From NCBI RefSeq assembly GCF_030684315.1, contig NC_081370.1, positions 23,318,267-23,382,266 of the forward strand: 64,000 bases of DNA, given 5' to 3'. The notes beneath the pieces were generated by a model. That model ran no database searches. It saw nothing but the letters and a program-made list of their open reading frames with translations, and was not told the DNA's origin. The position numbers and the translations under genes were made by a program. Shown piece by piece: positions 3,891 through 55,599 of the stretch (positions are counted from its first letter, which is position 1; the number at the start of each line of letters is the position of its first letter). The stretch is from Stegostoma tigrinum (taxonomy: Eukaryota).

Positions 3891-4645
3891 AAATGGAATT
3901 TAATAAAAGAGAGTGGATGTTGAAATACTGAGGAGTGAATCACAGTGAAAGAAGGGTGAATAACAATAAATGAAGAGTAATGACATTGGGGAAAAAAATG
4001 ATAATGGAGAGGGTAAAGTGAGGAGTTTTGAAAACGTGGAAAAATAATGGTAGGAAGTTGCAGCAATGAAGGAGAGGAGCTGAATCTCAGTAAACAAAGG
4101 AATGGGAAGCAATAAAATCAAAGAGAGATGGAACACAATGGGTGACAATGAAGGGAGGAGCTGAATAGTAAGTGTAGGAAGGAGGAGACATGTTACAATA
4201 AAAGGAAGATTTTAAAAAATATTTTTCTATTTGTTTTTGATGTCACTGGCAAGCACACATATCTCCCTGAATGACTGCAGTCCATTTGTTTGGTGCACCT
4301 GCAGTGCTGTTAGGAAATTAACAATAACAAAAGAGTTATCAGTTAGCAAAAGCCAAGAGTGACACACAGGATGTGGGAGGAAAGAAAGGGCTACAGTGAG
4401 AGAAAGTGGTGAAGATGTATATTAATTTGAACTGCTGAATGAGAGGTTACCTTCAAAGTACAACAGTGGTGGCATTAGTCTGACTGCATTAAAAAGAAAT
4501 ATGACTGTTATGTTGAATTGAAAGGGGTGCATGGAAAACGTTGGAACGAACTCTGCAGTATTGAAAGAGAGCACTACCTATAGAAACATAACATGCCCAA
4601 TGATTGCTGGGCCCAATTGATATAAATAGTTAAATTTCAGTGGCA

Positions 4646-4846
4646 GAGATAGTAGGAACTGCAGATTCTGGAGAATCTGAGGTAACAAGGTGTAGAGCTG
4701 GACGAACACAGCAGGCCAAGCAGCATCAGAGGAGCAGGAAAGCTGACATTTCGGGCCTAGACCCTTCTCCTGAAAAGTCGGCTTTCCTGCTGTTCTGACG
4801 CTGCTTGGCCTACTGTGTTCATCCAGCTCTACACCTTGTTATCCTT
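4646..4846. mobile_element. Miniature palindromic PLE-terminus element (M1), apex partly deleted
   Basis: Two inverted copies of the PLE 3' terminus. TSD AATTTCAGTGGCA at 4633-4645 and 4847-4859. Confidence 0.85.
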
Positions 4847-6145
4847 AATTTCAGTGGCAAGCTGATTAATGTGTCATTGAGAAAATGATCTCTGGACGTT
4901 CTTAAAGGTACCATTCAAGGGAGTATCTTGCCAAGTCCAAATAAGACATCAAAAAATCCACTATTACCATTGTAAAAGCATTGAGGTTCAAAATAAACTA
5001 TGAATAGAATGAGAAATGAGAATTTTAAAATTTGAATGTAAAGGCAACTGGTATTGTAAACACCTGATAAATGTTTGATGATCATGATTTATCATATCAA
5101 TTAGCCACATACATCTGTTAATTGTTCAGCAATGACACAATTTGCAATACAATTTGTTCAAAACAAAGTGAATAGGACTGAGACTTTCCAGGGGATAAAT
5201 GTTATGGGTCCCTTATCAACCAGTTTAAAAGTGGGCATTGGGGATAGTGGGATAGCATTGTAAATTGATCAGCCTGCCACCTTCCCTCCCACCCTTAACC
5301 TGTCAGCCATTTTAGGTGTTTTGAGGAGTGAATTGAGGGGGGCACTGGTGGTGGTGTGTAATGTCCTTTTGAGCTGGGTGGCCACATGGGATGATTCTGC
5401 ATACACCGATCCTCAGCATTGCTTGTAGCCCTAGGAGTAGGCACTACTGTTTTCAAGCACTGATTGGACTATAGAACTGCCAATCAGTCAAATTGGGCAC
5501 CAACTCGTTCTAACCTTGAGGAATTGAAGAATCCAGTCTGCTCCAATTATTGCTATGGAGTGGTCAGATTTTACATCATTGGCATTTCAGTCACTTTTTA
5601 GCTGTGCGGCTGAGGGTGAGACGCATGGATAATTTATCCTCCTATCCATCCCTTGGTCTACACCACCACACTGTTTGTAGGTAGAGTTTGACACCAGTAT
5701 AATACAAGAAAGGTGATGCCATTGTCACATTTAATTAAGCAATGAGGCCTATAATATAAAATTCATTCAATGCAGTTATTGAATCAATTTAAGTATACCA
5801 CGCTATTTTCCTGCAAGTAAATAGTGCAAATAATAAAGGGTTATAAATTATATTATATTAGTGAATAAAACAACAGTGATAATTAAGTTAAAATATTGCC
5901 TCACCTTATGAAGCACATTATCCACCAGTCATACATAGAATGAATATCAAATTATTATTTATTCTAATGTTTAGATTCAAAGGAGTTTAATGCTTCACTT
6001 TCCCCCCCGCAATATGTCATTGTCTGCTCATGTTGATCTATGTAAAAACTAAGTCATGTCTTTGTGTGATGAATTATAGATGCTGAGATCATATTGATGT
6101 AGCAGTGATTGGCATGACATTAATCAAAATATAATTTTATTCTAG

Positions 6146-6199
6146 TTCACATCAGACCAGATTGCAGGAAAAGATGTTCGCCTCTTGAGAATTAAGAAG
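6146..6199 (+). CDS. USH1C: Harmonin internal exon (FTSDQIAGKDVRLLRIKK), start of PDZ3
   Basis: AG acceptor 6144-6145, GT donor 6200-6201, 54 nt, phase 0-0. The peptide matches vertebrate harmonin FTPEQIMGKDVRLLRIKK as I recall it. Upstream exons were not found in the window. Confidence 0.95.
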
Positions 6200-6959
6200 G
6201 TAACAAGAATTATTTCTCCAGCAGAATTTATATTCAAATTCTGAAGTAGAAACATGCCTATTTTATATGCTTTAATCTCATCCTATTCCTTCTGTCTATA
6301 AACTATATCTGCAAGTTAAATCAAAATATTTTCAGGAGGCTGCTCTGCATTGCAGTTTTTGCACAAAATTAATTTTACTGTACAGTTGATGCAGCATTTT
6401 GTCCATGAAGCATTTGATAAATAATATCCCTGCAATGTCATCTTGGTACTGAGAGCAGATGGAATACTTGGCTTCAAACTGCAAGATTTCAGGTTCATGT
6501 ATTGGGGTTGTCACTTTATTTGGAGGATGAATTTTGTCAGTTTTTGGCCAGGTGTCAGCATGTGGAAGTCTCAATGGAGTTTAAATGTTCAATGAGGAAA
6601 TGAAAAAGCAATGAATAATCAACAAGGTGTTACTCGAAATTTGTAGACTGCAAGTTTAATTTGCAGTTTGAAAATAATCAGTTATTTTCTGAGGTTAAGA
6701 ACAGTTAACATTTGCAGATATTCGGATGAATCTTAATAAGGAATTAAAATTTTTTTTAAATAGTCATGTTTCACCTATATAGCTGCTCTCTGTCAGCCTG
6801 TGAATGATATTGCATGAATTTCTGCATTAATCTCTTTGAATCTTGGCAACACTGGTGAAGGCCATATTTATAAACATCTTTGTGATCCACATTATATCTG
6901 TACATTCCTCAAAAAAGTGATTGATTTAAGCTCGAATCATAAACTCTTATTGAACATTT

Positions 6960-10590: not shown

Positions 10591-12830
10591 GATCGGAGAT
10601 AATAGGAACTGCAGATGCTGAAGAATACAAGATAACAAAGTGTGGAGCTGGATGAACACAGCAGGCCAAGCAGCATCTTAGGAGCACAAAAGCTGACGTT
10701 TTTGGCCTCGACCCTTCTTCAGAAAAGGGGGATGGGGAGAGGGTTCTGAAATAAATAGGGAGAGAAGGCGAGGCGGACTGAAGATGGATACAGGACAAGA
10801 TAGGTGGAGAGGAGAGTATAGGTGGGGAGGTAGGGAGGGGATAGATCAGTCCAGGGAGGACGGACAGGTCAAGAGGGCGGGATGAGGTTAGTAGGTAGGA
10901 AATTGAGGTGGGAGGAGGGGATAGGTGAGAGGAAGAACAGGTTAGGGAGGCGGAGATGAGCTGGGCTGGTTTTGGGATGCAGTAGGGATGAGGGGAGATT
11001 TTGAAGCTTGTGAAAGCCACATTGATATCATCGGGCTGCAGGGTTCCCAAGTGGAATACGAGTTTCCGTTCCGCAACCTTCCGGTGGCATCATTATGGCA
11101 CTGCAGGAGGCCCAGGACGGACATGTCGTCTAAGGAATGGGAAGGGGTGTTAAAATGGTTCGCGACTGGGAGGTGCAGTTGTTTATTGTGAACTGAGAGT
11201 AGGCATTCTGCAAAGTGGTCCCCAAGCCTCCGCTTGGTTTCCCCAATGTGGAGGAAGCCACAACAGGTACAGCGGATGCAGTATACCACATTGGCAGATG
11301 TACAGGTGAACATCTGTTTGATGTGAGGGGGCAAGTGTAGCACTTCCTGCGGTTGCACGGGGAAGTGCCAGGTGTGGTGGGGTTGGAGGGGAGTGTGGAG
11401 CTGACAAGGGAGTCCCGGAGAGAGTGGTCTCACCGGAAGGCAGACAGGGGTGGGGATGGGAAAATGTCTTTGGTGGTGGGGTCAGATTGTAGATGACGGA
11501 AGTGTCGGAGAAGGGTCCCACCCACCTTCCTGCAGACCAATGTCCATTTCAAGCCCACCAACTCCCACAGCTACCTAGAATACACCTCCTCCCACACACC
11601 CTCCTGCAAAAAGTCCGTCCCCCATTCCCAATTCCTTCACCTCCGCCACATCTGCTCCCAGGATGAGGCATTCTACTCCCGTACATCCCGGATGTCCTCG
11701 TTCTTCAAGGACCGCAACTCCCCCCCCCCCCCCCCCCCCCCCTCCCACCCCGGCAGTGGTCGAGAACACCCCCAACCGTGTCTCCCGCATTTCCCACAAC
11801 TCATCCCTCACACACCGTCCCCCGCAATATCCGCCAAAAGAGAATCCCCCTCGTCCTCACATACCACCCCACCAACCTCCGGATTCAACACATCATCCTC
11901 TAACACTTCCGCTGTCAACATTCCGACCCACCACCAAAGATATTTTTCCATCCCCACCCTTGTCTGCCTTCTGGAGAGACCACTCTCTCCGGGAGTTGCT
12001 TGTCCGCTCCACTCTCCCCTCCAACCCCACCACACCCGGCACTTTCCCCTGCAACCGCAGGAAGTGCTACACTTGCCCCCACACCACCTCCCTCACCCCC
12101 ATCCCAGGCCCCAAGATGACTTTCCACATCAAACAGATGTTCACCTGCACATCTGCCAATGTGGCATACTGCATCCGCTGTACCCGTTGTGGCTTCCTCT
12201 ACATTGGGAAAACTAAGCGGAGGCTTGGGGACCGCTTTGCAGAACACCTCCGCTCGGTTCGCAATAAACAACTGCACCTCCCAGTCGCAAACCATTTTAA
12301 CACCCCCTCCTATTCCTTAGACGACATGCCCATCCTGGGCCTCCTGCAGTGCCATAATGATGCTGCTTGAAGGTTACAGGAACAGCAACTCATATTCCAC
12401 TTGGGAACCCTGCATCCCAATGATATCAATGTGGCTTTCACAAGCTTCAAAATCTCCCCTCCCCCCCCACTGCATCCCAAAACCAGCCCAGCTCGTCCCC
12501 ACCTCCCTAACCTGTTCTTCCTCTCACCTATCCCCTCCTCCCACCTCAGCCGCACCTCCATTTCCTGCCTACTGAGCTCATCCCACCCCCTTGAACTGTC
12601 CGTCCTCCCCGGACTGACCTACCCCTCCCCACCTCCCCACCTATACACTCCCCTCCACCTATCTTGTCCTGTATCCATCTTCAGTCCACCTCCCCCTCTC
12701 TCCCTATTTATTTCAGAACCCTCTACCCATCCCCCTCTCTGATGAAGGGTCAAGGCCCATTCCATCAGCTTTTGTGCTCCTGAGATGCTGCTTGGCCTGC
12801 TGTGTTCATCCAGTTCCACACTTTGTTATA
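10591..12830. mobile_element. Penelope-like retroelement, inverted two-arm insertion (P1)
   Basis: Minus arm about 10591-11512 and plus arm about 11535-12830. GIY-YIG motif VAYCIRCTRCGFLYIGKTKRRLGDRFAEH (ORF 11663-12370). TSD TTAT(G/A)CATGAATTTT at 10576-10590 and 12826-12840. Confidence 0.92.
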
Positions 12831-17726: not shown

Positions 17727-17955
17727 GAGATAACAAAGTGTAGAGCTAGATGAACATGCCAGGCCAAGCAGCATCAGAGGAGCAGGAAGGCTGATGTTTT
17801 GGGCCTAGACCCTTCTTCAGGAAATATTTTCTGAAGAAGGGTTGAGGCCCAAAACGTCACCCTTCCTGCTCCTCGGATGCTGCTTGGCCTGCTGTGTTCA
17901 TCCAGCTCTACACCTTGTTATCTCAGATTCTGCAGCATTTGCAGTTCCTACTGTC
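17727..17955. mobile_element. Miniature palindromic PLE-terminus element (M2), inserted in a CR1
   Basis: Inverted arms about an apex at 17825/17826 (ttcttcaggaaat|attttctgaagaa), tail on the right. Only AAGTT (17722-17726, 17956-17960) as a possible TSD. Confidence 0.85.
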
Positions 17956-17982: not shown

Positions 17983-19322
17983 CATAGAAACATAAAATAA
18001 AAGATAGGAGCAGGAGTAGGCCATTTGACTCTCAAGCTTGCTGTGACTATTCGCTATAAGCATGGCTGATCTTCAAGCTCAATACCCTAATCCTACCCTA
18101 CCCCCTTGGACCCTTTAGCCACAAGAGCTATATCTACCTCCTTGAAAACACATCAACACTTTGGCCTCAACCACTTTCTGTGGTAGTGAATTCCTCACAC
18201 TCACCACTCTCTGGATGAAGAAGTTTCTCGTCATTGAAGTCTTACCAGGTTTACCCTTAAACTGTGGCCCATGGTTCTGGACTCTCTCACCATTAGGAAC
18301 ATCCTATGTGCATCCTATCTAGTCCCATTAGAATTTTTTAGATTTCTATGAGATCCCCCATTTATACTTCTCCAGTGAATACATTCCGAACCGACTCAAC
18401 CTCTCTTCACATGTCAGTCATGCTATCCCAGGAATCAATTTGGTAAACCTTTGCTGTGCTCCCTCCGTAGCAAGAACATCCTTCCTCAGATAAAGAGACC
18501 AAAACTGCACATGATATTCCCGGTGTGGTCTCAGCAATACCCTGTATAATTGCAGCAAAATATCCTTGTCCCTGAACTTGAATCCTCTCGCTGTGTAGGT
18601 CAACATGCCGTTTGCCTGCTGCACCTGTATGCTTCCTGGCAACAACTGGTGCACAAGGACACCCATGTCTCATTGATTATTTCCTTCTTTCAATTTTTAA
18701 CTAAATAATAATCTGGTCTCCTATTTTTGCTACTGAAGTGAAATACTTCCCATTTATCCACATTATGCTGCATCTGTTGTGCATTTACTCACACAGCCTG
18801 TCCAAATCTCACTGCAACATCTCTGCATCCTCCCCACAGCTTACCCTTCCACCCTCTTCTAAATCAGTGACATATATTGTGAATTTAGCTGGAGTCCTAG
18901 TACTGACCCATATGGTTACCCCTAACCACTCTAGCAAAAACTCTCCCTTGAGCATCAGTACTGGTCCTACCCAATTTGCACTGGCCCCACCTCTCCCAGA
19001 ACCGATCCCACTGCCCCAGGAATCTGAAACCTTTCCCCATCTCTGTAGGCATGTATTCATCCAATTATATCCAGTTAATTCTACTGACTAGCACCTGACA
19101 CTGCTGGTATTCCTGAGATCATCACTACCTTTGAGATACTACTTTTCAGCTTGCTTCCTAACTCCCTATATTATGCTTTTAGGACCTCATCCTTTTTGCT
19201 TAAAAAAAAATGTCTTTTGTAGCAATGTGTACCATAACCATTAGGTGATCACCCTCCTCCAGGGTGTTGCCTAGCCGCTCTGAAACATCCATGAGCCTAG
19301 CACCAGGGAGACAACATATCAA
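17983..19322 (-). mobile_element. CR1 LINE, antisense, internally deleted (3' end, ORF2 end and ORF1 esterase remnant)
   Basis: catagaaacat tail; LQLYRVLLRPH.EY.VQFWS.YLRKD (ORF 18418-18666); CCLPGAR-like reverse complement near 19290-19320. Confidence 0.8.
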
Positions 19323-20733: not shown

Positions 20734-23121
20734 ATACAATGTGAGGCTGGATGAACACAGCAGGCCAAGCAGCATCTCAGGAGCACAAAAGCTGACGTTT
20801 CAGGCCTAGACCCTTAAGCAGAGAGGGGGATGGGGAGAGGGAACTGGAATAAATAGGGAGAGAGGGGGAGGCGGACCGAAGATGGAGAGTAAAGAAGATA
20901 GGTGGAGAGAGTATAGGTGGGGAGGTAGGGAGGGGATAGGTCAGTCCAGGGAAGACTGACAGGTCAAGGAGGTGGGATGAGGTTAGTAGGTAGATGGGGG
21001 TGCGGCTTGGGGTGGGAGGAAGGGATGGGTGAGAGGAAGAACCGGTTAGGGAGGCAGAGACAGGTTGGACTGGTTTTGGGATGCAGTGGGTGGGGGGGAA
21101 GAGCTGGGCTGGTTGTGTGGTGCAGTGGGGGGAGGGGACGAACTGGGCTGGTTTAGGGATGCAGTAGGGGAAGGGGAGATTTTGAAACTGGTGAAGTCCA
21201 CATTGATACCATTAGGCTGCAGGGTTCCCAGGCGGAATATGAGTTGCTGTTCCTGCAACCTTCGGGTGGCATCACTGTGGCAGTGCAGGAGGCCCATGAT
21301 GGACATGTCATCTAAAGAATGGGAGGGGGAGTGGAAATGGTTTGCGACTGGGAGCTGCAGTTGTTTGTTGCGAACTGAGCGGAGGTGTTCTGCAAAGCGG
21401 TCTCCAAGCCTCCGCTTGGTTTCCCCAATGTAGAGGAAGCCACACCGGGTACAGTGGATGCAGTATACCACATTGGCAGATGTGCAGGTGAACCTCTGCT
21501 TAATGTGGAATGTCATCTTGGGGCCTGGGTAGGGGTGAGGGAGGAGGTGTGGGGGCAAGTGTAGCATTTCCTGCGGTTGCAGGGGAAGGTGCCGGGTATG
21601 GTGGGGTTGGAGGGCAGTGTGGAGCGAACAAGGGAGTCACGGAGAGAGTGGTCTCTCTGGAAAGCAGACAGAGGTGGGGATGGAAAAATGTCTTGGGTGG
21701 TGGGGTTGGATTGTAAATGGCGGAATTGTTTGAGGATGATGCGTTGTATCCGGAGGTTGGTAGGGTGGTGTGTGAGAACGAGGGGGATCCTCTTTGGGCA
21801 GTTGTGGCGGGGGCGGGGTGTGAGGGATGTGTTGCGGGAAATACGGGAGACGCGGTCAAGGGCGTTCGCGATCACTGTGGGGGGAAAATTGCGGTCCTTG
21901 AAGAACTTGGACATCTGGGATGTGCGGGAGTGGAATGCCTCATCCTGGGAGCAGATGCGGCGGAGGCGGAGGAATTGGGAATAGGGGATGGAATTTTTTC
22001 AGGAGGGTGGGTGGGAGGAGGTGTATTCTAGGTAGCTGTGGGAGTCGGTGGGCTTGAAATGGACATCAGTTACAAGCTGGTTGCCTGAGATGGAGACTGA
22101 GAGGTCCAGGAAGGTGAGGGATGTGCTGGAGATGGCCCAGGTGAACTGAAGGTTGGGGTGGAAGGTGTTGGTGAAGTGGATGAACTGTTCGAGCTCCTCT
22201 GGGGAGCAAGAGGCGGCGCCGATACAGTAATCAATGTACCGGAGGAAGAGGTGGGGTTTGGGGCCTGTGTAGGTGTGGAAGAGGAACTGTTCCACGTAAC
22301 CTACAAAGAGGCAGGCATAGCTGGGGCCCATGCGGGTGCACTGCATCCACTGTACTCGGTGTGGCTACCTCTATGTTGGGGAAACCAAGCGGAGGCTTGG
22401 AGACCGCTTTGCAGAACACCTCCGCTCAGTTCGCAACAAGCAACTGCACCTCCCAGTCGCAAACCATTTCCACTCCCCCTCCCATTCTTTAGATGACATG
22501 TCCATCATGGGCCTCCTGCAGTGCCACAATGATGCCACCCGAAGGTTGCAGGAACAGCAACTCATATTCCGCCTGGGAACCCTGCAGCCTAATGGTATCA
22601 ATGTGGACTTCACCAGTTTCAAAATCTCCCCTTCCCCAACTGCATTACTAAACCAGCCCAGTTCGTCCCCTCCCCCCACTGCACCACACAACCAGCCCAG
22701 CTCTTCCCCCCCCCCCCCCCCACCCACTGCATCCCAAAACCAGTCCAACCTGTCTCTGCCTCCCTAACCGGTTCTTCCTCTCACCCATCCCTTCCTCCCA
22801 CCCCAAGCCGCACCCCCATCTACCTACTAACCTCATCCCACCTCCTTGACCTGTCAGTCTTCCCTGGACTGACCTATCCCCTCCCTACCTCCCCACCTAT
22901 ACGCTCTCCACCTATCTTCTTTACTCTCCATCTTCAGTCCACCTCCCCCTCTCTCCCTATTTATTCCTGTTCCCTCTCCCCATCCCCCTCTCTGCTTAAG
23001 GGTCTAGGCCCAAACGTCAGCTTTTGTGCTCCTGAGATGCTGCTTGGCCTGCTGTGTTCATCCAGCCTCACATTTTATTACCTCGGAATTCTCCAGCATC
23101 TGCAGTTCCCATTATCTCTGA
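20734..23121. mobile_element. Penelope-like retroelement, inverted two-arm insertion (P2)
   Basis: Minus arm to 22339 carries RT motifs (MGPSYACLFV, LRYID) and GIY-YIG. Plus arm from 22340 carries GIY-YIG plus 3' end. Perfect TSD TACTGTCTAAAATA at 20720-20733 and 23122-23135. Confidence 0.95.
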
Positions 23122-25030: not shown

Positions 25031-27427
25031 ATAACAAAGTGTGGAGCTGGATGAACACAGCAGGCCCAGCAGCATCTCAGGAGCACAAAAGCTGATGTTT
25101 CGGGCCTGGACCCTTCATCAGAGACAGGGATGGGGAGAGGGTTCTGGAATAAATAGGGAGAGGGGGGGAGGTGGACCGAAGATGGAGAGAAAAGAAGATA
25201 GGTAGAGAGGAGAGTATAGGTGGGGAGATAGGGAGGGAATAGATCAGTCCTAGGGACAGGTCAAGGAGGGGGGATGAGGTTAGTAGGTAGGAAATGGAGG
25301 TGCGGCTTGAGGTGGGAGGAAGGGATGGGTGAGAGGAAGAACAGGTCAGGGAGGCAGAGACCGGCTGGGCTGGTTTTGGGTTGCAGTGGGGGGAGGGGAC
25401 GAACTGGGCTGGTTTTGGGATGCAGTGCGGGAAGGGGAGATTTTGAAGCTGGTGAAGTCCACATTGATACCATTGGGCTGCAGGGTTCCCAAGCGGAATA
25501 TGAGTTGCTGTACCTGCAACCTTCGGGTGGCATCATTGTGGCACTGCAGGAGGCCCATCTTGAACATGTCGTCTGAAGAATGGGAGGGGGTGTTAAAATG
25601 GCTCGCGACTGGGAGGTGCAGTTGTTTATTGTGAACCGAGCGGACGTGTTCTGCAAAGCGGTCCCCAAGCCTCCACTTGGTTTCCCCAATGTAGAGGAAG
25701 CCACCCCGGGTACAATGGATACAGTATACCACGTTGGCAGATGTGCAGGTGAACCTCTGCTTAATATGGAAAGTCATCTTGGGGCCTGGGATAGGGGTGA
25801 GGGAGGAGGTGTGGGGGCAAGTGTCGCATTTCCTGCGGTTGCAGGGGAAGGTGCCAGGTGTGGTGGGGTTGGAGGGCAGTGTGGAGCGAACAAGGGAGTC
25901 ACGGAGAGAGTAGTCTCTCTGGAAGGCAGACAAGGGTGGGGATGGAAAAATGTCTTGGGTGGTGGGGTTGGATTGTAGATGGCGGAAGTGGTCGGAGGAG
26001 GGTGGGTGGGAGGAGGTGTATTGTATCCGGAGGTTGATCGGGTGGTGTGTGAGAACGAGGTGGATCTTCTTTGGGTGGTTGTGGCGGGGGCGGGGTGTGA
26101 GGGATGTGTTGTGGGAAATGCGGGAGACGCGGTCAATGGCGTTCTCGTCCACCATGGGGGGAAAGTTGCAGTCCTTGAAGAACTTGGACATCTGGGATGT
26201 GCAGGAGTGGAATGCCTCATCCTGGGAGCAGATGCGGCAGAGGCGGAGGAATTGGGAATAGGGGATGGAATTTTTGCAGGAGGGTGGGTGGGAGGAGGTG
26301 TATTCTAGGTAGCTGTGGGAGTCGGTGGGCTTGAAATGGACATCAGTTACTAGCTGGTTGCCTGAGATGGAGACTGAGAGGTCCAGGAAGGTGAGGGATG
26401 TGCTGGAGATGGCCCAGGTGAACTTGAGGTTGGGGTGGAAGGTGTTGGTGAAGTGGATGAACTGTTCGAGTTCCTCTGGGGAGCAAGGGGCGGCGCCAAT
26501 ACAGTCATCAATGTAACAGAGGAAGAGGTGGGGTTTGGGGGCCTGTGTAGGTGCGGAAGAGGGACTGTTCCACGTAACCTACAAAGAGGCAGGCATAGCT
26601 GGGGCCCATGCGGGTGCCCATGGCCACCCCCTTGTTCTGTAGGAAGTGGGAGAAATCGAAAGAGAAGTTGTTGAGAGTGAGGACGAGTTCAGTTAGGCGG
26701 ATGAGGGTGTCGGTGGAGGGGGACTGGTCGGGCCTGCGGGACAGGAAGAAGCGGAGGGCCTTGCAGAACACCTCCGCTCGGTTCGCAATAAACAACTGCA
26801 CCTCCCAGTTGCAAACCATTTTAACTCCCCCTCCCATTCTTCAGACGACATGTCCATCATGGGCCTCCTGCAGTGCCACAAGGATGCCACCCGAGGGTTG
26901 CAGGAACAGCAACTTATATTCCGCTTGGGAACCCTGCAGCCCAGTGGTATCAATGTGGACTTCACCAGCTTCAAAATCTCCCCTTCCCGCACCGCATTCC
27001 AAAACCAGCCCAGTTCGTCCCCTCCCCCCTCTGCACCCCAAAACCAGCCCAGCCTGTCTCTGCCTCCCTAACCTGTTCTTCCTCTCACCCATGCCTTCCT
27101 CCCACTTCAAGCCACACCTCCATTTCCTACCTACTAACCTCATCCCACCTCCTTGACCTGTCCGTCTTCCCTGGACTGACCTATCCCCTCCCTACTTCCC
27201 CACCTATACTCTCCTCTCCACCTATCTTCTTTTCTCTCCATCTTCAGTCCACCTCCCCCCCTCTCCCTATTTATTCCAGAACCCTCTCCCCATCCCTGTC
27301 TCTGATGAAGGGTCTAGGCCCGAAACATCAGCTTTTGTGCTCCTGAGATGCTGCTTGGCCTGCTGTGTTCATCCAGCTCCACACTTTGTTATCTTGGATT
27401 CTCCAGCATCTGCAGTTCCCATTATCG
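25031..27427. mobile_element. Penelope-like retroelement, inverted two-arm insertion (P3)
   Basis: Minus arm to about 26762 (LTLNNFSF..GVAMGTRMGPSYACLFV RT motif, GIY-YIG). Plus arm from about 26761. Perfect TSD AAGATGCACCATG at 25018-25030 and 27428-27440. Confidence 0.95.
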
Positions 27428-29720: not shown

Positions 29721-31409
29721 TTAGAGATAGCAAGAACTACAGATGCTGGAGTCAGAGACAACACAGTGTGGAGCTGAGGCCAGGCAGCATCAGAGGAGCA
29801 GGAAAGTTGATGTTTCAGGTCAGGACCCTTGTTCGGAAATGGGGAACAGGAAGGGAGCTGGGAAATAAATAGGGAGCAGGGATGAGGCTGGGACAGCTAA
29901 GTGGGATGGTGATAGGTGAGTGCAGGTAGGGAGTAGTGGGAATTGATCAGTGAAGCAGGAGGAGCGGACAGATGGGAGAGAAGGTGTACAGATCGTGTCA
30001 GGTTGTGTCAGGTCAAGGAGGCGGAGATGAGAGGGAGGGTTGGACATGGGATGAGGCTAGTGGTAGGGAGATTTTAGAACTGGTGAATTCAATGTTTAGG
30101 CCATCAGGCTGTGGCCTCCTGAAGCAGAATATGAGGTGTTGCTCTGTCAGTTTGCGGGCGGTGTCGTTGTAACACTGAAGGAGGCCCAGGACAGACATGT
30201 CACCCAGCGAGTGGGAGTGGGAAGGGGATTTAAAATGGTTCTCGACCAGAAGATGTTGTCGTTTGTCGTGTGCAGAGCGCAGATGCTCTACAAAACGGCC
30301 TCTGAGTCTCCACTTGGTCTCACTGATGTAGAGGATGCAGTACACCAAGCTGATGAATGTACAGGTGACCCCATGTCTGATATGTAAGGTCTGCTTTGGG
30401 CTTTGAATGGAGGTGAGAGGGGTGGTGTCGGGGCAGGTGTAGCACTTCCTGCGGTTGCAGAGAAAAATGCTGAGGGTATAGTGAGGCTAGTGGAGAGTGA
30501 GCAGTCCCTATGAAAGGCACATAGGGGTGGGGAGGGAAATATATCTTTGGTTGTGGGTCAGATTGCAGGTGGTGGAGAATGATACATTGGATGCAGAGGT
30601 TGGTGGGGTATATGTGAGGACAAGGGGGGTTCTGTCTTTATTTTTGTTTGGGGAAGGGGTTTGAGGGCAAAAGTGTAGGAAATGCAAGGGAAATGAAAAT
30701 CCTCTCATCCATCCTCCTGCAATAATGTGATCCCCTATTCTCAATTCCTCCACTTCCAACACATCTCCTTCCAATATGGAAGGTTCCACTCCTGGACATC
30801 CCAGATGTCCTCCCGCTTCAAGGACCGCAACGTCCGCTCTCTGGTGATCAAAAAAGCCCTCAATTGTATCTCTTGCATTTCCTGCCCTTCTGCCCTCAGA
30901 TCCCTCACCCCAACAAATTAAAGACAGAATCCCTCTTGCCTCACGTATCACACCACCAACCTCTGCATCCAGCACAGCTTTCTCCACCATCCTGGGCCGC
31001 CTCCAATGTCACAATGTCACCACCCGCAAACTGAAGGAGCCATCTTGGTAGCCTACAGCCCGAGGGCCTAAACATGGAATTCACCAGTTTTAAAATCTCC
31101 TCACCCCCGGCCTCATCCCATGTCTAACTCTCCCTCTCATCCCCGCCTGCTTGACCTGACACAACCTGTCCATCTTCTCTCCCACCTATCTGCTCTTCCT
31201 GCCTCACTGACCAATCCCCACCACAGCCTACCTGCACTCACCTATCACCATCCCACTGACCTTCGCCAGCCCCACCCCTCTTCTCTATTTATTTCAGAAC
31301 TCCCTTCGCCGACCCTATTTTTGAAGAAAGGTCCCAACCTGGAACGTTAACTTTCCTGCTGCCCTGATGCTGCCTGGCCTGCTGTGTTCCTCCCAGCTCC
31401 ACACAATGT
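29721..31409. mobile_element. Older Penelope-like element, inverted two-arm insertion (P4)
   Basis: Degenerate GIY-YIG (ORF 30013-30348 -) and IPYSQF..RFKDR (ORF 30727-30921 +). Junction near 30690. TSD AATTAACTGCTAC at 29708-29720 and 31410-31422. Confidence 0.85.
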
Positions 31410-32589: not shown

Positions 32590-32807
32590 AATAAAATGTG
32601 AGGCTGGATGAACACAGCAGGCCAAGCAGCATCTCAGGAGCACAAAAGCTGACGTTTCGGGCCTAGACCCTTTATCAGAGCTCTGATGAAGGGTCTAGGC
32701 CCGAAACGTCAGCTTTTGTGCTCCTGAGATGCTGCTTGGCCTGCTGTGTTCATCCAGCCTCACATTTTATTATCTTGGAATCTCCAGCATCTGCAGTTCC
32801 CATTATC
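32590..32807. mobile_element. Miniature palindromic PLE-terminus element (M3)
   Basis: 92-bp arms 32589-32680 and 32681-32772, no spacer, one mismatch seen; 35-nt tail. Perfect TSD TTTAAAAGTGAAGTT at 32575-32589 and 32808-32822. Confidence 0.93.
32677..32716 (+). ncRNA. Minimal type I hammerhead ribozyme motif (PLE-associated)
   Basis: AGAGCT-CTGATGA-A-GGG(tctagg)CCC-GAAAC-GTC-AGCTTT: conserved core, 3-bp stem II, palindromic ACGT in place of stem III, predicted cleavage after 32710. Activity untested. Confidence 0.7.
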
Positions 32808-41651: not shown

Positions 41652-43958
41652 CAGTGAAGAAACAAAAGCTTCAGAAGGAAAATCCCTCTCCAGAATCAAA
41701 TTATCTCCATATTGGCCAATGTTAGAATCTATGAAAATGAGAAAGAAGGAAGCAAATCAAATTGATTCATCTTATTCAGAAAGTAATGATAATGATAAAA
41801 GATGCAGATGATGCATATTGCTACAAGTAGTAAACAAAAGCCAAACGTTTTTTAAGTGAATGTAACAGAAGCATTTTTTAATGTACTGTGTCAAATTAAT
41901 GTTCATTTGAGATCATATTGGAAGGTTTGGCAAAAATTATCTTCTTACAACCAAATTTTCAAAAAACCTAAAAATTTACGAAGGAGATTTAATCTGAGTC
42001 ACACAATCAATGATGAACAGAAATGTACTTCACCTTCATAAGCCTATCCTAATAAGGTTTGCCTGTAGGTTCACGAAGCTGTTCCAGATCTGAATGTGTC
42101 TGATATTGTTCTGCTGACACACTTTATCTTTGTAATCCTATGCTTAATTAATTGAATTGGAGATAGCACTTACACAAGACGAGCTATCTGCTTTTACAGA
42201 TAGCAAATGTGCTGGGTAAGAAAAGCACAGTCAAGAACCAGGAATTAAACCTCATCTCAAAGGCGGAACAGGAAAGCTACTGTTGTTAAATACAATGAAA
42301 CTGCAATGACCTGAGAGCCTTTACAAGTGGAATCATGAAAACTCTCAGCTGCTATTGTTGAAAATAATTAGTGGACAAACTGAAAACAAGAAATTAGAAG
42401 GGGGAGGTTTTTATGAGACAAAGCTTCAGGTGGAAAGTAAGAGTTTCATGATGATACTGCCTGGCACCTGCTCATCATGCCAGAATAGTTAAATGAAGGA
42501 CCATAAGGCATGAAGTGACCATCATCTTCATTTACATCCATAGCATTAAATGCTGCAAGGCCAAATACAGCCTGTCCCATCAAGCAGAAAGCTATCTTCT
42601 CTCTAGGGACCAGGAGACACAGACATTCTTGTCCTCTACTGGCTCTGCTTTCTTTTTTATTGTTTTTCACAGGTTGTAGGTGCCACTGGCTAGGTCAGCA
42701 ATTGTTGTGTTTGACAAGGTGATGTTGAGCTGTCTTCTTAAAATGTTGCAGTCCATGTGATATAGCTACAGCCCATAATGTTGTTAGGAGAAGAGAGGCA
42801 GGGCTTTGACCCAAAAATAGTGAGGAGATTTTGATATAGCCCCAAATAGGGAACTGGAATGAGAGGTGAATTTAAGAGTTAATGCTGCTCTTGTACTTCT
42901 AGATCCAAGAAGTTGCAGGTTTGGAGCATGCTGACTAAGGAGCCCTAGTGAGTTGTTGTAATGTATCTTGTAGATGGTACAAACTGATTACACACTGCAT
43001 TACTAATAGGAGTTGATGTGGTGCCAGTCAAGTGGGCTGCTTCAGTCTTGCTGGTGTTGAGCTTCATGCTTACTGTTGAAACTGCAGCAAGCCAGACAAG
43101 TGGAGAGTATGTCATGATGCTCCTGACATATGCATTGTAGATGTTGAGCAGGCTTTAGGGAGTCGGTGGCAGATTACTCACTGCAGAATTCCAAGTATGT
43201 GACCTTCTCTTTTACCTACTGTATTTATATGGCTACTCCAGTTCAGTTTCTGATCAATAGTAACCTGCAGGGTTTTGTTACAGAAAGATTCAGCAATGAT
43301 TAAAGCATTAATTGTCAAGAGAAAATGGATAGATTCGCTCTGGTTGAAGATGATCATTGCCTCACCCTTGTATGTTATGAATGTTACTTGACTATAATCA
43401 GCTCACGCCTCAAGGTTGTCCGGATCTCACTGCATAAGGGCTCAAGTTGTTTTGGGAGTGTCTGAAGAGACATAAATGGTGCTGAATGTTGTGCAATCAT
43501 TGTCAAATATTTCCCACTTCTGACCTTATGGAGAAATGAAACACGTGAGAACAGTTGGACCTAGAACAATACCTTGAGGAACATGGCTGTGATATCCTGG
43601 AACTGAGATGATTGACATTCAACAACCTTCACAAAAACCCTTTGTGTTAGGTATGACTTCAACCAGTGGAGAATTTTCCACTGATTTCTATCAACTTTAA
43701 TTTTACTATAGTCTTTGATGTCATAGTCAGTCAAATGTTACCCTTGATGTCTAGGCTAGTCACTCACATTTCTCCTCAGGAATCCAGCTCTTTGGTCCAT
43801 ATTAGACCTAGGCTATGATGAAGTCAGGAGCTGAGAGGACTTTGCAGAACCCAAACTGAGAGTCAGTGAGCATGTTATTGCTGAATAGCTCAGTCAATGA
43901 TGCCTTCTAAATATTTTCTGATGATTGATAGTAGACTGATGGTGCATTAATTCAGCAG

Positions 43959-44188: not shown

Positions 44189-44735
44189 CATTAATTCAGC
44201 AGGTTGGATTTGTCTTGTTATTGTGCCTTTCTCATATCTGAGAAATCATCCACATTTTTGGACAGATTCCAGTGTTGTAGCTATACTGGAACAGCTTAGC
44301 TCTGGATGTGGCTTGTTCTGGATCACAAGTTTTCTATAGTATTGCTGAAATGTTATCAGGGCCCATAGTGTTTACTGTATCTAGTGCTTTCAGCTGTTTC
44401 TTGATATTACACGGCATAAATCAAATTGGTTAACAATTGGCATCTGTAATGTTGGGCACATCAGGTGGAGGAAATCACAACTTCTAGTTGAAGATAGTTG
44501 GCAATATTTCAGTCTTGGCTGCTACATAAATGTGCTGGGTTCCCCCATTAAGAGGGATGATAATATTTGTGGAGCTGCCTCTTAGGGTTCATTGTTTAAT
44601 TATCCAAGATCATTACTGGATGTGACAGGGCAACAAACTGGATATCTGATTGGTTGGTCATGAGGTTTGCTTCCTCCTATTGTGTGCCACCATCTTCTGC
44701 AAAAGAAAAGATAGTACGTCACTGGCTGTGTAGGG

Positions 44736-45061
44736 ATGCAGCACAGTGGCTCAGTGATTAGCACTGCTACCTCACAGCACTTGGGACCCGGGTTCGATTC
44801 TACTCTCAAGCGACTGCCTGTGTGGAGTTTTCACATTCTCCCGATGTCTGTGGGGGTTTCCTGTGGTTGCTCCAGTCTCCTGCCACAAAGCTGTACAGGT
44901 TAGGTGGATTGGCCTGCTAAATTGTCCCACAGTGTCTCAGGATGTGCAGGTTAGGTGGATTATCCATAACTTGGAGGGAATGGATCTGGATGGGATGCCC
45001 TTCAGCAGGTTGATGTAGCTCAATGGGATGAATAGCCTCTTTCCACACTGTAGGATTCTAT
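44736..45061 (+). mobile_element. tRNA-derived V-SINE (HE1-like)
   Basis: Same head, V domain and tail as 3583-3890. Confidence 0.85.
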
Positions 45062-46307
45062 GAGTGCATTTGGGTGATGTACCCACCATAGGTAAGTATC
45101 TGTGGAGTTAGTGACAAGCAGATATGAGGCTGACATCATTTATGGTTAGAGTTTTTTGATGGTATGCATGATTCCTGAAGGCTGGGGTATGTTTCTGAGT
45201 GAGTCAATGTGTAGTAAAGAGTATGAGACATTAATGTTGTGGATAGGGAATGCCATATGTACTCCCTGTCTTAGAGTTCTTCCGGTGCTGCTGTAAGACC
45301 CTTCAGTTCAGACTCCATGAGTTCAAATTGTTCACTGGCTGCTTCCATCCCTTCACTGGTGAATCTTCTTAAAGATCTCTCCCCACTACCCATAGCCTTT
45401 AATGCCTCCAGTGTAACATTGTGCAACTTTTAATCGTTCTGTGTGCCCTTGTGATCTATTTGTAGAATTTCCATTGTGGCAGTCTTATTCCCTATCACTT
45501 CTTCAAAAGGCCGTTGAACTTTAAGAACAAGCATGCTGCCTCTGCAACAAATTGTGTAGCGAGGTATGTGAGGAGCTCAACGTGGGTATACAGGTGAAAA
45601 GACCAATGTCGGAGGCACCAGACACTCATTCAGATGAGGTGTGCAGGTAAATTTGATGTCTTGCCCATTTCCATCAGAATATGTGTTTGCACACCACACT
45701 TTGCAGATCCCATGCCCAGAAATAAATTTCACACCCACTGAGATTGATTCTCTAACCCCCTTTCACAAATTGCATGGCTTCATGCCAAAGTGGAATTTGT
45801 TAAATGTGAACCATATTTACCAGAGTGGCACTGGAATTGCTAAAAACACATCCACCAATTGATGTGAAGTGATGTTGGGTTTTTTGATCACTTATAGTTT
45901 GTACATTTTTGTACAATTAATATGTAACATGGAAAATTAGTTGCAGCAGCACATATAAGTGGAAATCATAAAATATTTACTTAAATATAGTGATGACAGT
46001 TGAATCACCTGCATTCAATAATTAAATAGGTATATTGCTAAGAATGCCTGTGTTGTTCAAGAAATCTTAAATTAAAAACCAATTTATGACTACACAAATA
46101 TCTAATAAATGTAATTATTTATTGTTCTTCACACTGTGACTGTTGTTTTCAAATCTGTAATTAATCCAAATTTTTGGTCATTATTGCTTTCAAGGGAAAC
46201 CATAAAAGTCAAACTTTGTCATGCATCTGTTTAAATATATACTTTTCTAATCCACCCAGAGATAATTGTAACCATTAAATCTTTAAGAAAACCATCACAA
46301 TTCACAA

Positions 46308-47700
46308 CATAATAAAATGTGAGGCTGATGAACACAGCAGGCCCAGCAGCATCTCGGGAGCACAAAAGCTGACGTTTCGGGCCTAGACCCTTCATCAGAG
46401 AGTGGGATGGCGTGAGGGTTCTGGAATAAATAGGGAGAGAGGGGGAGGCGGACCGAAGATGGAGAGAAAAGAGGATAGGTGGAGAGGAGAGTATAGGTGG
46501 GGAGGTAGGGAGGGGATAGGTCAGTCCAGGGAAGACGGACAGGTCAAGGTGGTGGGATGAGGTTAGTAGGTAGGAGATGGAGGTGCGGCTTGGGATGGGT
46601 GAGAGGAAGAACAGGTTAGGGAGGCAGAGACAGGCTGGACTGGTTTTGGGATGCAGTGGGTGGAGGAGAAGAGCTGGGCTGGTTGTCATCTAAAGAATGG
46701 GAGGGGGAGTGGAGATGGTTCGCGACTGGGAGGTGCAGTTGTTTATTGCGAACTGAGTGGAGGTGTTCTGCAAAGCGGTCCCCAAGCCTCCGCTTGGTTG
46801 CCCCAATGTAGAGGAAGCCACACCAGGTACAATGGATACAGTATACCAGATTGGCAGATGTGCAGATGAACCTCTGCTTAATGTGGAAAGTCATCTTGGG
46901 GCCTGGGATAGGGGTGAGGGAGGAGGTGTGGGGGCACGTGTAGCATTTCCTGCGGTTGCAGGGGAAGGTGCCGGGTGTGGTGGGGTTGGAGGGCAGTGCG
47001 GAGCGAACAATGGAGTCACGGAGAGAGTGGTCTCTCCGGAAAGCAGACAAGGGTGGGGATGGAAAAATGTCTTGGGTGGTGGGGTTGGATTGTAGATGGC
47101 GGAAGTGTTGGAGTATGATGCGTTGTATCCGGAGGTTGGTGGGGTGGTGTGTGAGAATGAGGGGGATCCTCTTTGGGCGGTTGTGGCGGGAGCGGGGTGT
47201 TAGGGATGTGTTGCAGGAAATGCGGGAGACACGGTCAAGGGCGTTCTCGACCACTGTGGGGGGAAAATTGCGGTCCTTGAAGAACTTGGACATCTGGGAT
47301 GTGCGGGAGTGGAATGCCTCATCCTGGGAGCAGATGCGGTGGAGGAATTGGGAATAGGGAATGGAATTTTTGCAGGAGGGTGGGTGGGAGGAGGTGTATT
47401 CTAGGTAGCTGTGGGAGTTGGTGGGCTTGAAATGGACATCAGTTACAAGCTGGTTGCCTGAGATGGAGACTGAGAGGTCCAGGAAGGTGAGGGATGTGCT
47501 GGAGATGGCCGAGGTGAACTGAAGGTTGGATTGGAAGGTGTTGGTGAAGTGGATGAACTGTTCGAGCTCCTCTGGGGAGCAAGAGGCGGCGCCGATACAG
47601 TCATCAATGTAACGGAGGAAGAGGTGGGGTTTGGGGCCTGTGTTGTTGCGGAAGAGGGACTGTTCCACATAACCTACAAAGTGGCAGGCATAGCTGGGGC
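46308..47700 (-). mobile_element. Penelope-like retroelement, single 5'-truncated arm (P5)
   Basis: 369-aa ORF 46616-47725 with PSYAC, LRYIDDCIG, FLD, IPYSQF and LVYCIHC..FLYIG; internal deletion near 46684. Candidate TSD CAATTCACAA at 46298-46307 and 47708-47717. Confidence 0.92.
46371..46398 (-). ncRNA. Minimal hammerhead ribozyme core in the P5 3' terminus
   Basis: Reverse complement reads CTGATGAAGGGTCTAGGCCCGAAACGTC, downstream of and sense to the PLE ORF. Confidence 0.6.
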
Positions 47701-51443: not shown

Positions 51444-51454
51444 TTTACCAGTAT

Positions 51455-52855: not shown

Positions 52856-54003
52856 CCATGAGCAAACTAAGTCTCCATTGAACAAAATGCTGTAATGTTA
52901 TGCATGACATCAAATGAGAGTGTGTGTCACAGAACTAAGGATCTTTTTTTTAACCAGTGTACCACAGTATGGACCCAGAAAGCAAACGGAACAGCGAACA
53001 CTACTAATTGATATGTTTACCAAGTGATACCTGATTGTTTTGGATCCAAGCCATAACAATCCATAAGGAAAATTCTTCTTGATTTCACAACTACACAACT
53101 ACCCATCATTTGGCTGCAGACCTGACTCTGACTTTGCTTGTCCTCCCACCTCTATCACAATGGCTAACATGATGAAACTCATTTTCTGGGCCCAGTTTCC
53201 TTGTTTTCCACTGTCATTTCTCAGCTCCGTGACTTCAATATTAGGGCTGAGATCTATGAAGGAATGGTCACAAATGTTTTCAATGGAGAATAGGGCACAA
53301 TGTTGATCTTCAGTTGATGTTCCATTTTCCAGCAGAAAGCGTCAACTCCCTAGAAAATACCATCAGAACAAAAATATGCTGCAGCAGTTGAAGCTCTCGT
53401 GACCATTCAATATTACCTTCTATTATTTATGCTGAAGTATCACCCACCTGGATCTCCCTTGCATTTACCTTGCAAGTGAAAGTAAATTGCAACTGAATTA
53501 CACATTATTTTCATTCAAGTAATCTTTTCATCTTCTAATAAAAAAGATTTTAAAAATGAAAAAATGGTTACAACTTCCTTGTATCATCCTTTGGCTTGAT
53601 TTCAACATTGACTTCAATAGTGTCCTGGAAAATAATCTTCAATTCCCAGATAGTCCAGGCTAATTCTAAAATGTAGGCAAGGTAACTATTCAAAGTGTGC
53701 TTATCTGACTGCAGAACATTTAAAATGATGGGTATGAAATTGATTATGGCATTGACTGGAGTGTTTTCCTGAATTATATTAAATACTTTGCAAATATTGC
53801 CCATAGTTGTAACCAATCAAAATGTGCAAAATTTACTGGGATTTATAAAAACTAAATGAATCATCTGTGCTATTTTATCTGCATGACACGAGGAGGACGT
53901 ATTATCAAACACGCAACAACTGCATGTTATGCTGTGAAAAATATGATTACAGAGTTTCAGCAGCTAATCCTAGAGTTTCTATTTGAACGAAATTTGCCTG
54001 TTT

Positions 54004-54165
54004 GGGTCTAGGCACAAACTAGACCCTTCATCAGAGCTGATGAAAGGTCTAGACCCGAAACGTCAGCTTTTGTGCTCCTGAGATGCTGCTTGGCCTGCTG
54101 TGTTCATCCAGCTTCACACTTTGTTATCTTGGATTCTCCAGCATCTGCAGTTCCCATTATCTCTG
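54004..54165. mobile_element. Rearranged miniature PLE-terminus element (M5)
   Basis: Full right arm with tail, 16-nt inverted left arm and an extra short sense fragment. No clear TSD. Confidence 0.8.
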
Positions 54166-54781
54166 GGTACATTTTTGCCAGGTTTAATTCTTTCTCTCTG
54201 TCTCAACTGGTACATCACTTTAAGGGAAGCTGTTGTTTAAGGAAAAGGAAAAATTATAGTGATTGTTTTAAATAGTTGGTGTTTTCAATAGCCTTGAAAG
54301 ATAAGAATTTCTTGTAACTGATAAATTATCCTTTTGATGTATGATTATTCATGTGCACAAACGTTCTGCTCTACTACATCATAAAATTCAATGCAGCATT
54401 AATGAAGACTATGATACACAAATTTATTTGTAAAATGGATTTTTTTATTCAGCTGTGTTTATCCATTTCCTGTAACATAAAACTGATACTAAGATAGTGC
54501 AAATCCTACTCTAAAGCCAGTCACAAAGAAGCAAAGCAAAGTATCCTGATTGCAAAAGGAAAAGGTAGGTTTAAAAATATAAGAACATATTATTTCATTT
54601 TAGATTGCCAGGATTTCATGGCAGCAGAATTAGAGGTCTAACCTAAGACCTTGTCAATATATAGGGGAGCACACTTAATTAAATTCCCTCTGACATCTCT
54701 GTAGTCCTGCCCTCTTCTTCACACTCCCAGGCTAGAAACCATCATCGCATCGATCATATTCTAAGCTATAACCATACTCAG

Positions 54782-54973
54782 TGATAATGGGAACTGCAGA
54801 TGCTGGAGAATCCAATATAACAAAGTGTGGAGCTGGATGAACACAGCAGGCCAAGCAGCATCTCAGGACCACTTCAGAGAGCTCTCTGATGAAGGGTCGA
54901 GGCCTGAAACATCAGCTTTTGTGCTCCTGAGATGCTGCTTGGCCTGCTGTGTTCATCCAGCTCCACACTTTGT
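54782..54973. mobile_element. Miniature palindromic PLE-terminus element (M6)
   Basis: Apex 54881/54882 (tcagagag|ctctctga); left arm lacks about 30 nt. Perfect TSD TATAACCATACTCAG at 54767-54781 and 54974-54988. Confidence 0.92.
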
Positions 54974-55599
54974 TATAACCATACTCAGATGGTTCAACCT
55001 GCATCATGTCTCCATCTCTCTGGCTTTAACAGTTCAAATGTATACCCATTTCTAACCAATTATACTAGTCAATGCTTCCTCATTTTCTCTGTCCCTCAGC
55101 TCACCAGATCCCCTTTGGCTTCAAATCTACCCTTTAAAGGATCTCAATCTTTGAATGTTCACAGGAGCTCCAACTCCATTTACACATTCCATTGAGGCCT
55201 CCTATGTGATCCTTACAATATTCCCAACATATTCTCACCATATAATGGGGACAGGTGGGGGGGGGGGTATACTGGAAAACAGAGGGAAAGCAGCGCAGAT
55301 ATCAGGTGGGAAGTAAGTAATGACGTAGCCACGGAAATATGTTGTGCCAACGACCAATGAATGACTGGGGTGCTTGAACCTTAGGATCGCAAACAAAAAT
55401 TCTTTTGAAGCATTTGACAGGGACCACTTTCAGTGTGAGGTTGAATTGATCTTTGTTCTGTAAGGTAAACTCTTTATAGTAATTGTACATCTAATGTATT
55501 TCTACATTTTCAACTCTGGTCTCATTTCGTTGGCTGTTGAAATCATGAAGAATAAAATGCTTCAAGAAAATGGAAAAAGGCTTGCACCCATTAAGACGT

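What the first reader, a model, noticed from the sequence alone, without database searches (positions are those of the whole stretch)
4633..54988. Miniature Penelope-derived hairpin elements, mostly with their own TSD, whose apex is pinned to the hammerhead core
Seen: six 160-230 bp elements (M1-M6) consist only of inverted copies of the PLE 3' terminus. Four have clean 13-15 bp TSDs, so they are separate insertion events. In M2, M3, M4, M5 and M6 the symmetry axis lies within about 5 nt 5' of the hammerhead CTGA(T/A)GA, with 0-2 nt spacer (tcagag|ctctga, tcagaaaag|cttttctga, tcagagag|ctctctga). The arms stop just before the C-run of the parent element. Established: PLEs form inverted pseudo-LTRs and carry minimal hammerheads. 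Inference: a fixed apex is not expected from random 5' truncation. It suggests a defined short RNA template, an RT stop or fold-back at the ribozyme, or a MITE-like non-autonomous retro-hairpin family mobilised by the PLE RT/GIY-YIG. I cannot tell whether this has been described in sharks.
Basis: partly seen in the sequence, partly recalled or inferred. Interest (0 to 1): 0.8.

Follow-up and report, generated by a model that had tools for sequence, protein, structure and literature searches.

The report
Penelope hairpins marking RNA start site
Tens of thousands of tiny palindromic insertions of a Penelope-type jumping gene all fold at nearly the same base, which is likely the capped start of the element's RNA rather than its ribozyme cut site, so they likely record how these poorly understood elements copy themselves from both DNA strands at once.

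Summary
The six hairpins are real. Four have 13-15 bp TSDs, and an exact apex pattern hits 6,927 loci genome-wide. They are short head-to-head copies of the end of a Neptune-like Penelope element. In 1.357 Mb of unselected DNA, 64 of 242 arms end 0-6 nt before the hammerhead CUGAUGA, a stop rate about 25 times that just upstream. Solo arms end there too. The site is about 30 nt from the predicted ribozyme cut. It lies 30 nt below a conserved TATTTAT, on an Inr/TCT-like motif, and is often preceded by a non-parental G (41 of 50 apexes). Short arms pair with short arms (40 vs 3 mixed), and 22 of 52 pairs are non-nested. Minis form no clade and lack the TATA-like box. Best reading: promoterless run-off cDNAs from a capped RNA 5' end, primed from both nicked strands. 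This is not a ribozyme stop and not a self-propagating MITE. Against: tandem-type copies stop there only 3 of 31 times, one predicted cap signature was absent, and no RNA 5' ends could be seen.

The parts
4646..4846 (.). M1: head-to-head mini of an older subfamily; left arm tailed and reaching about -5, right arm starting near +25; TSD 4633-4645 / 4847-4859
17728..17955 (.). M2: mini of the old ATTT subfamily, apex AAAT|ATTT at 17825/17826, no TSD found
32590..32807 (.). M3: young mini, both arms start at -2 (apex 32680|32681), right arm carries the ~32-nt tail; TSD 32575-32589 / 32808-32822
32683..32710 (+). Minimal hammerhead layout in M3 right arm: CUGAUGA, bulged A, 4-bp stem II, GAAAC, GUC; predicted cut after 32710; activity untested
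   Evidence: sequence, fold, descriptor of PMC4209133
43959..44188 (.). M4: mini of the TTTT subfamily, both arms start at -5 (apex 44089|44090); TSD 43945-43958 / 44189-44202
54004..54164 (.). M5: one full tailed arm (54037 onward), a 17-nt inverted arm (54020-54036) and a short sense fragment; no TSD
54782..54973 (.). M6: young mini, right arm starts at -4, left arm tailed with an internal ~30-nt loss; TSD 54767-54781 / 54974-54988
10598..12829 (.). Long inverted insertion of the same family (arms to about -914 and -1246), with TSD; its two arms differ in subfamily marks
20734..23121 (.). Long inverted insertion (arms to about -1519 and -656), 14-bp TSD; both arms share a private CTGCTTAAG change
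22958..22991 (+). Parent upstream region absent from the minis: TATTTATT at -34, C-run, TCT-like initiator with C at -4 (22988); inferred promoter
25031..27427 (.). Long inverted insertion (arms to about -1626 and -577), 13-bp TSD
29724..31409 (.). Old long inverted insertion with TSD
46299..47700 (-). Solo 5'-truncated long arm with a ~10-bp TSD

Best explanation
The minis are head-to-head pairs of short Penelope 3'-end copies whose inner ends cluster 0-6 nt before the hammerhead core, and that point is likely the capped start of an RNA made from a promoter just upstream. Inferred steps: (1) Pol II fires from the TATTTAT box in the 3' end of a long or tandem copy and starts at a C (TCT-type) or A (Inr-type) about 30 nt below it. 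(2) The element's protein nicks both target strands about 15 bp apart. Each nick primes reverse transcription at one of two internal sites (about +93 and +125; the gap is the tail), as shown in vitro for a lizard Poseidon element. (3) With only 95-130 nt of template, both cDNAs run off the 5' end and often copy the cap as an extra C. (4) The two cDNA ends are joined by microhomology (G|C, AG|CT), often after trimming or with filler bases. One cDNA joined to the host gives a solo arm. The products lack the promoter and would be dead ends, remade independently by each subfamily.
For: Stop rate per nt: 0.059 at -6..0; 0.0024 at -20..-7; about 0.001 further upstream; 0.005-0.013 at +1..+42, as expected for a wall with trimming back. 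AT-flanked 5' ends genome-wide: 11 at -36, 871 at -4, 287 at +28, 71 at +41. G directly before the end: 77 of the first 100 rows at -4 (41 of 64 without AAAAG rows) vs 12 of 100 at +28 and 7 of 26 at +41 (hand counts; Fisher). Unselected solo arms: G in 14 of 30 vs 18 of 89, p=0.008; three TSD-flanked solos have one lone extra G (in one of them the G may be parental). Apex AG-N-CT: N is C/G in 41 of 50 listed loci although the parent base is T, and 0 of 100 listed long arms lack that CT. TATTTAT lies at -34 or -35 in 63 of 76 long arms; the end shifts with it, -4 in CTCT and -5 in TTTT apexes (M4, listing). The ends match YC+1TYTYY or BBCA+1BW (PMC5580651). Pair classes 40 short-short, 18 long-long, 3 mixed, p=2.6e-12. 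One tailed plus one short arm in 52 of 61 pairs; 22 of these 52 non-nested. The two arms agree at subfamily sites 89% vs 66% shuffled.
Against: No RNA 5' ends were observed; promoter and cap are inferred from DNA. Tandem-type copies that read through into a second unit stop at -7..0 in only 3 of 31 cases vs 65 of 155 (p=0.0004), so a second class of template (multi-unit, read-through or circular) must be added. The predicted signature of two retained caps (CG at the apex) was seen in 0 of 50 old and 0 of 50 young apexes; GC (21 of 50 old) fits a -5 start with or without a cap. In the old ATTT subfamily solos show G in only 4 of 17. Only 3 of 7 TSD-flanked solos with extra bases end in G. TATTTAT is not a perfect TATA box, and its conservation is not above its neighbours in the young family. 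AG precedes the end more often than TG (27 vs 14), which is unexplained.
Confidence: 0.68

Rival explanations
1. The RT stalls at the edge of the C-run on a long RNA (structure, bound protein or G-run in the new cDNA) and adds an untemplated C; no RNA end lies there.
For: Ends do coincide with the edge of the C-run. RTs can add untemplated bases (own knowledge). Needs no promoter.
Against: Independent stalling predicts about 26 mixed pairs; 3 of 61 were seen. Tandem-type copies pass the same sequence 28 of 31 times. G is enriched at -4 but not at +28, +41 or -36.
Confidence: 0.15
2. Self-priming: one cDNA folds back and copies itself, as proposed for rotifer PLE palindromes.
For: Arms share private variants (20734-23121). 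Short pairs with short. Proposed in PMC3846280.
Against: The second arm must nest inside the first, but in 22 of 52 pairs the untailed arm reaches at least 10 nt further 5' than the tailed one. Zero-loop apexes are common. Solo arms with TSDs end at the same place.
Confidence: 0.07
3. The hammerhead defines the template end (cleavage) or blocks the RT.
For: The peak abuts CUGAUGA. +28 has about twice the AT-flanked ends of +44 (about 253 vs 127). Six of 70 tandem-type copies begin at +25..+33.
Against: The cut is after +27, about 30 nt from the peak; 3 of 242 arms end at +28. The +28 excess lies within the general gradient. PMC11167929 found cleavage not needed for insertion and no reads ending at the cut.
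Confidence: 0.05
4. A self-propagating MITE-like hairpin family copied from mini masters.
For: High copy number (6,927 exact; about 94,000 estimated). Some apex strings recur.
Against: Apexes and trim points vary locus by locus. No mini clade. Nearest neighbours of short arms are long arms 44% of the time vs 40% expected. No upstream promoter motif in minis. The 91-column tree is weakly resolved.
Confidence: 0.04
5. Post-insertion central deletion of long inverted copies.
For: Long inverted copies exist beside the minis. Palindromes are deletion-prone (own knowledge); this may explain the trimmed apexes.
Against: Gives no reason for a sharp wall at -4/-5, for non-parental C/G at the apex, or for TSD-flanked solos starting there. 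Orthologous sites were not examined.
Confidence: 0.02

Closest known systems
EN+ Penelope-like elements with inverted pLTRs and tail (PMC8557442, PMC3846280; passages read)
   Same: RT + GIY-YIG ORF, 5' truncation, partial tandems, an inverted 5'-truncated copy, a 30-40 nt tail on one end, palindromic junctions, TSDs.
   Different: Those texts treat truncation as variable and read the junction as self-priming on an antisense template. Here ends pile up at one site with an extra G, and many pairs are non-nested.
Anolis Poseidon PAc in vitro (PMC11167929; parts 1-2 of 4 read)
   Same: Two internal RT start sites bounding the tail, both strands nicked and extended, hammerhead cleavage dispensable. 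The 3' ends here fall at about +93 and +125.
   Different: The parts read do not treat inverted minis or an RNA 5' end. In PAc the ORF starts at hammerhead stem II; here that ATG frame closes after 13 codons and the long frame appears to start near +165. This element has a Neptune-type linker.
L1/SVA untemplated 5' G and L1 twin priming (PMC4859970; passages read)
   Same: An extra 5' G read as reverse transcription of the cap; two primers on one target giving an inversion.
   Different: L1 twin priming puts different parts of one RNA in the two arms; here both arms start at the same 3' region and are duplicates.
Non-LTR retrozymes (bioRxiv 10.64898/2026.07.22.740005; part 1 of 5 and passages read)
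   Same: Non-coding, hammerhead-bearing derivatives of PLE pLTRs.
   Different: Retrozymes are head-to-tail tandems thought to move via circles. The minis are head-to-head and shorter than one unit. The ~330-nt internally deleted tandems seen fit retrozymes better.
MITEs
   Same: Small, non-coding, inverted arms, TSD, high copy number.
   Different: Derived from a retroelement, with asymmetric ends, 12-18 bp TSDs and no evidence of a self-copying lineage.

Membership tests
EN+ Penelope-like element (parent) | Single ORF with RT followed by C-terminal GIY-YIG | tested here: met
   YIDD and GIY-YIG-type motifs in translations. Atlas hits at 0.95-0.96 to clusters with HTH_animal (up to 98%), GIY-YIG (12-32%) and RVT_1 (10-23%). 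Pfam direct: RVT_1 only E=0.005, below cut-off, and none for the 447-aa piece.
EN+ Penelope-like element (parent) | Partial tandem / inverted pLTR structure with optional 30-40 nt tail | tested here: met
   Full partial tandem with inverted arm around L060, unit about 3.5 kb. One tailed and one short arm in 52 of 61 pairs.
Neptune clade | CX2-5CxxC linker between RT and EN | tested here: met
   CNRRKCYTC; motif as described in PMC8557442, where Nematis also has a Zn-finger-like linker.
Neptune clade | RT phylogeny within Neptune | not tested
   No reference PLE proteins were at hand; no tree was built.
Minimal type I hammerhead | CUGANGA, bulged base, stem II, GAAA, palindromic link, NUH | tested here: met
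   Sequence and fold. Stem I is only about 2 bp. Rfam gave no hammerhead hit on 32560-32830, only sub-threshold miRNA hairpins.
Minimal type I hammerhead | Self-cleavage | not testable with these tools
   Needs an assay.
MITE-like self-propagating family | Copies descend from mini masters (own clade, shared apex) | tested here: not met
   the tree has only 91 columns.
MITE-like self-propagating family | Terminal inverted repeats plus TSD | tested here: met
   25 of 40 mini pairs have a TSD of 12 bp or more; ends are asymmetric.
Non-LTR retrozyme | At least two head-to-tail units, each with a hammerhead | tested here: not met
   Minis are head-to-head.
Pol II core promoter (TATA + Inr/TCT) | Initiator consensus at the 5' end and TATA-like box about 30 nt upstream | tested here: met
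   Inr and TCT consensus from PMC5580651; the TATA spacing is recalled.
Pol II core promoter (TATA + Inr/TCT) | Capped RNA starting there | not testable with these tools
   Only assembled contigs were offered, which cannot show starts.

The most novel reading that the evidence does not exclude
Penelope elements make a 'strong-stop' by-product: both target strands prime on a capped RNA near its 5' end, and the two run-off cDNAs are zipped together through the cap-derived C. About 100,000 hairpins in this genome would then be a base-resolution fossil map of the element's transcription start across subfamilies, including a switch from Inr to TCT initiators. They would show that the template is sense-strand and that inverted pLTRs arise by dual priming. 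Tandem copies would come from a second, hammerhead-processed or circular RNA.
Probability: 0.45. Interest if true: 0.75.

Novelty: new variant of a known kind. Interest (0 to 1): 0.58.

Why it matters
How PLEs make inverted pseudo-LTRs, which strand is the template and what the hammerhead does are open questions in the papers read (PMC3846280, PMC8557442, PMC11167929). This locus class gives genomic support for dual-strand priming on a sense, likely capped RNA. It names a start site that one CAGE or RACE experiment can confirm, and it separates that site from the ribozyme cut. It also means roughly 94,000 near-perfect ~200-bp palindromes (rough estimate) may be mis-annotated as MITEs or miRNA hairpins.

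Tried and rejected
RNA evidence: no RNA holder with raw reads was listed. Four contig sets of coded runs were laid and gave no start sites; this is no evidence either way. The two-cap 'CG' test was negative. A G next to a partner arm was rejected as evidence, because the parent C-run and the partner both supply G; only solos, filler junctions and the -2 apex were used. Reading TATTTATT as an antisense poly(A) signal was rejected: it would place ends near -45 to -65, where few occur. A splice acceptor at -4 was rejected: the parent has no AG there and the upstream sequences are heterogeneous. The PDB search found nothing. Earlier findings of the scan: none. Rows dropped: the C10 region beyond 93 kb (a ~95-kb tandem duplication); the C3 region is a satellite block with no hits but was kept in the denominator; arms not reaching +60 or scoring under 38 bits were not counted; a C7 request returned nothing. 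The same very abundant family makes blast ends uncertain by a few nt in old copies. Literature: nine answered searches, plus for promoter motifs, found no description of fixed-apex PLE minis or of an extra 5' G in PLEs. [quoted passage not shown] The supplement text of PMC11167929 had no hits and its figures are not held; bioRxiv supplements are closed. Any of these may already note the pattern.
Full report
Coordinates: 0 is the C of the hammerhead CTGATGA, read in element sense. Counts marked 'hand count' were read by eye from the first 100 printed rows of a search.

Observation. The six small elements exist. M1, M3, M4 and M6 have exact 13-15 bp TSDs; M2 and M5 have none. M5 has only a 17-nt inverted arm, M6's left arm has an internal loss, and in M1 only one arm reaches the hammerhead. 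The window also holds four long inverted insertions of the same family with TSDs and one long solo arm. An exact apex pattern matches 6,927 loci in the 3.2-Gb own genome, against 0 for the reversed control, and the apex strings differ from locus to locus.

Parent. Long copies encode an RT followed by a CNRRKCYTC linker and a GIY-YIG-type region. Atlas neighbours carry HTH_animal, GIY-YIG and RVT_1; direct Pfam support is weak. A full partial tandem with an inverted arm gives a unit of about 3.5 kb. I call it Neptune-like on the linker alone; no tree was built. The exact young upstream pattern occurs 84,051 times.

Where arms end. In 1.357 Mb of unselected DNA (seven regions; one duplicated half-region dropped, one satellite region empty) there are 242 arms, forming 61 head-to-head pairs and 120 solos. 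3' ends fall at about +93 or +125, and 52 of 61 pairs have one of each. This matches the two RT start sites and the two-strand nicking and extension shown in vitro for Anolis Poseidon (PMC11167929, parts 1-2 of 4 read). 5' ends: 64 of 242 lie at -6..0. The stop rate per nt is 0.059 there, 0.0024 at -20..-7, about 0.001 further up, and 0.005-0.013 at +1..+42. Young copies alone show the same: 29 of 76 at risk stop there, 0 of 47 at -20..-7. Solos peak there as often as paired arms (29 of 120; 35 of 122). Both arms reach the site in only 8 of 40 mini pairs, one arm in 19, neither in 13. Genome-wide counts of AT-flanked 5' ends agree: 11 at -36, 871 at -4, 287 at +28, 71 at +41.

Not the ribozyme cut. 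The minimal hammerhead layout of PMC4209133 (parts 1-2 of 4 read) is present, and its cut would fall after +27. Only 3 of 242 arms end at +28. Its roughly twofold excess over +44 lies within the general gradient.

What marks the site. TATTTAT lies at -34 or -35 in 63 of 76 long arms of all ages, about 30 nt above the end, and the end moves with it: -4 in CTCT, -5 in TTTT apexes. The bases at the end match the TCT motif (YC+1TYTYY) in young subfamilies and the Inr (BBCA+1BW) in old ones (PMC5580651, passages read). A G often precedes the end: 77 of 100 rows at -4 (41 of 64 without AAAAG rows, some of which are partner arms) against 12 of 100 at +28 and 7 of 26 at +41 (hand counts; tests). Among unselected solos it is 14 of 30 against 18 of 89, p=0.008. 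At the -2 apex, where the parent base is T, the single base between the arms is C or G in 41 of 50 loci (hand count), and 0 of 100 long arms lack that CT. An untemplated 5' G is the accepted mark of cap copying in L1 and SVA (PMC4859970, passages read).

How the arms relate. Short pairs with short (40), long with long (18), mixed 3 (p=2.6e-12), so the end is a property of the template rather than of each RT. Arms agree at subfamily sites 89% vs 66% shuffled. In 22 of 52 tailed/short pairs the untailed arm reaches at least 10 nt further 5', which a fold-back copy cannot do; self-priming was the reading offered in PMC3846280 (passages and Discussion read). Short arms form no clade (22 changes vs 25.4 shuffled, 56 of 500 as low; only 91 columns) and lack the TATTTAT box.

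Mechanism. Shown: fixed ends, the extra G, paired classes, non-nesting, TSDs, upstream motifs. Inferred: Pol II start at -5..0, cap copying, priming from both nicks on such RNA, and end joining with trimming. I put this at 0.68.

Results against it. Of 70 copies that read through the tail into a second unit, only 3 of the 31 reaching position 0 stop at -7..0, against 65 of 155 generally. Most of the 30 mapped in full are internally deleted units of about 330 nt, so a second, longer or circular template is needed. The same result argues against an intrinsic stall. The CG apex expected if both caps were kept was absent, 0 of 50 twice. Old-subfamily solos show G in only 4 of 17. No RNA starts could be examined.

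Novelty. Inverted pLTRs, tails, hammerheads and palindromic junctions are known for PLEs (PMC8557442, PMC3846280, PMC2377424; passages read). The searches and one search found no account of fixed-end minis or of an extra 5' G in PLEs. Repbase, Dfam, older subscription papers and some supplements were not visible. Verdict: a new variant of a known kind; interest 0.58.

Noticed in passing
L156-L185 (e.g. L161, L175, L183); also about 123 kb right of the window (C20w 187238-187912): Many copies are internally deleted non-autonomous units of about 300-400 nt (pLTR plus the first ~110-140 nt after the tail) in tandem and inverted arrays, with varied deletion breakpoints. They look like retrozymes, and their 5' ends do not pile up at -4.
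   Followed up: partly
window 10598-12829: The two arms of one TSD-flanked insertion carry different subfamily marks (TTTT/CTGAAGA/CTAAG vs CTCT/CTGATGA/CTGAG), suggesting two template RNAs or later conversion.
   Followed up: no
listings; L202: AAAAG|CT junctions are very common (36 of 100 and 45 of 71 rows). In the one case with a partner among four checked, the partner ends at +28..+30, so this is either an AGCT microhomology hot spot or a hammerhead-cut end.
   Followed up: partly
L198, L200, L203, L208: Apexes with short AT-rich filler (for example TAATA) between two -4 ends, the filler ending in G.
   Followed up: partly
G000:C10 20,000,001-20,200,000 (L096-L115): A tandem segmental duplication with a unit of about 92-96 kb.
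   Followed up: no
G000:C3 50,000,001-50,200,000 (L116-L135): Highly self-repetitive block with no copy of this element.
   Followed up: no
rows (e.g. L174, L210, window-unrelated regions): An older related family with a longer stem II, TATA-like TATATA/TATAAA upstream and a TCAGTT initiator also yields short arms and hairpins that start near -4.
   Followed up: partly
window 1772-2068, 3579-3904, 33456-33784, 40129-40299, 44731-45063, 17997-18742: Other high-copy interspersed repeats, not classified.
   Followed up: no
window 31845-31978: 134-base stretch of N.
   Followed up: no
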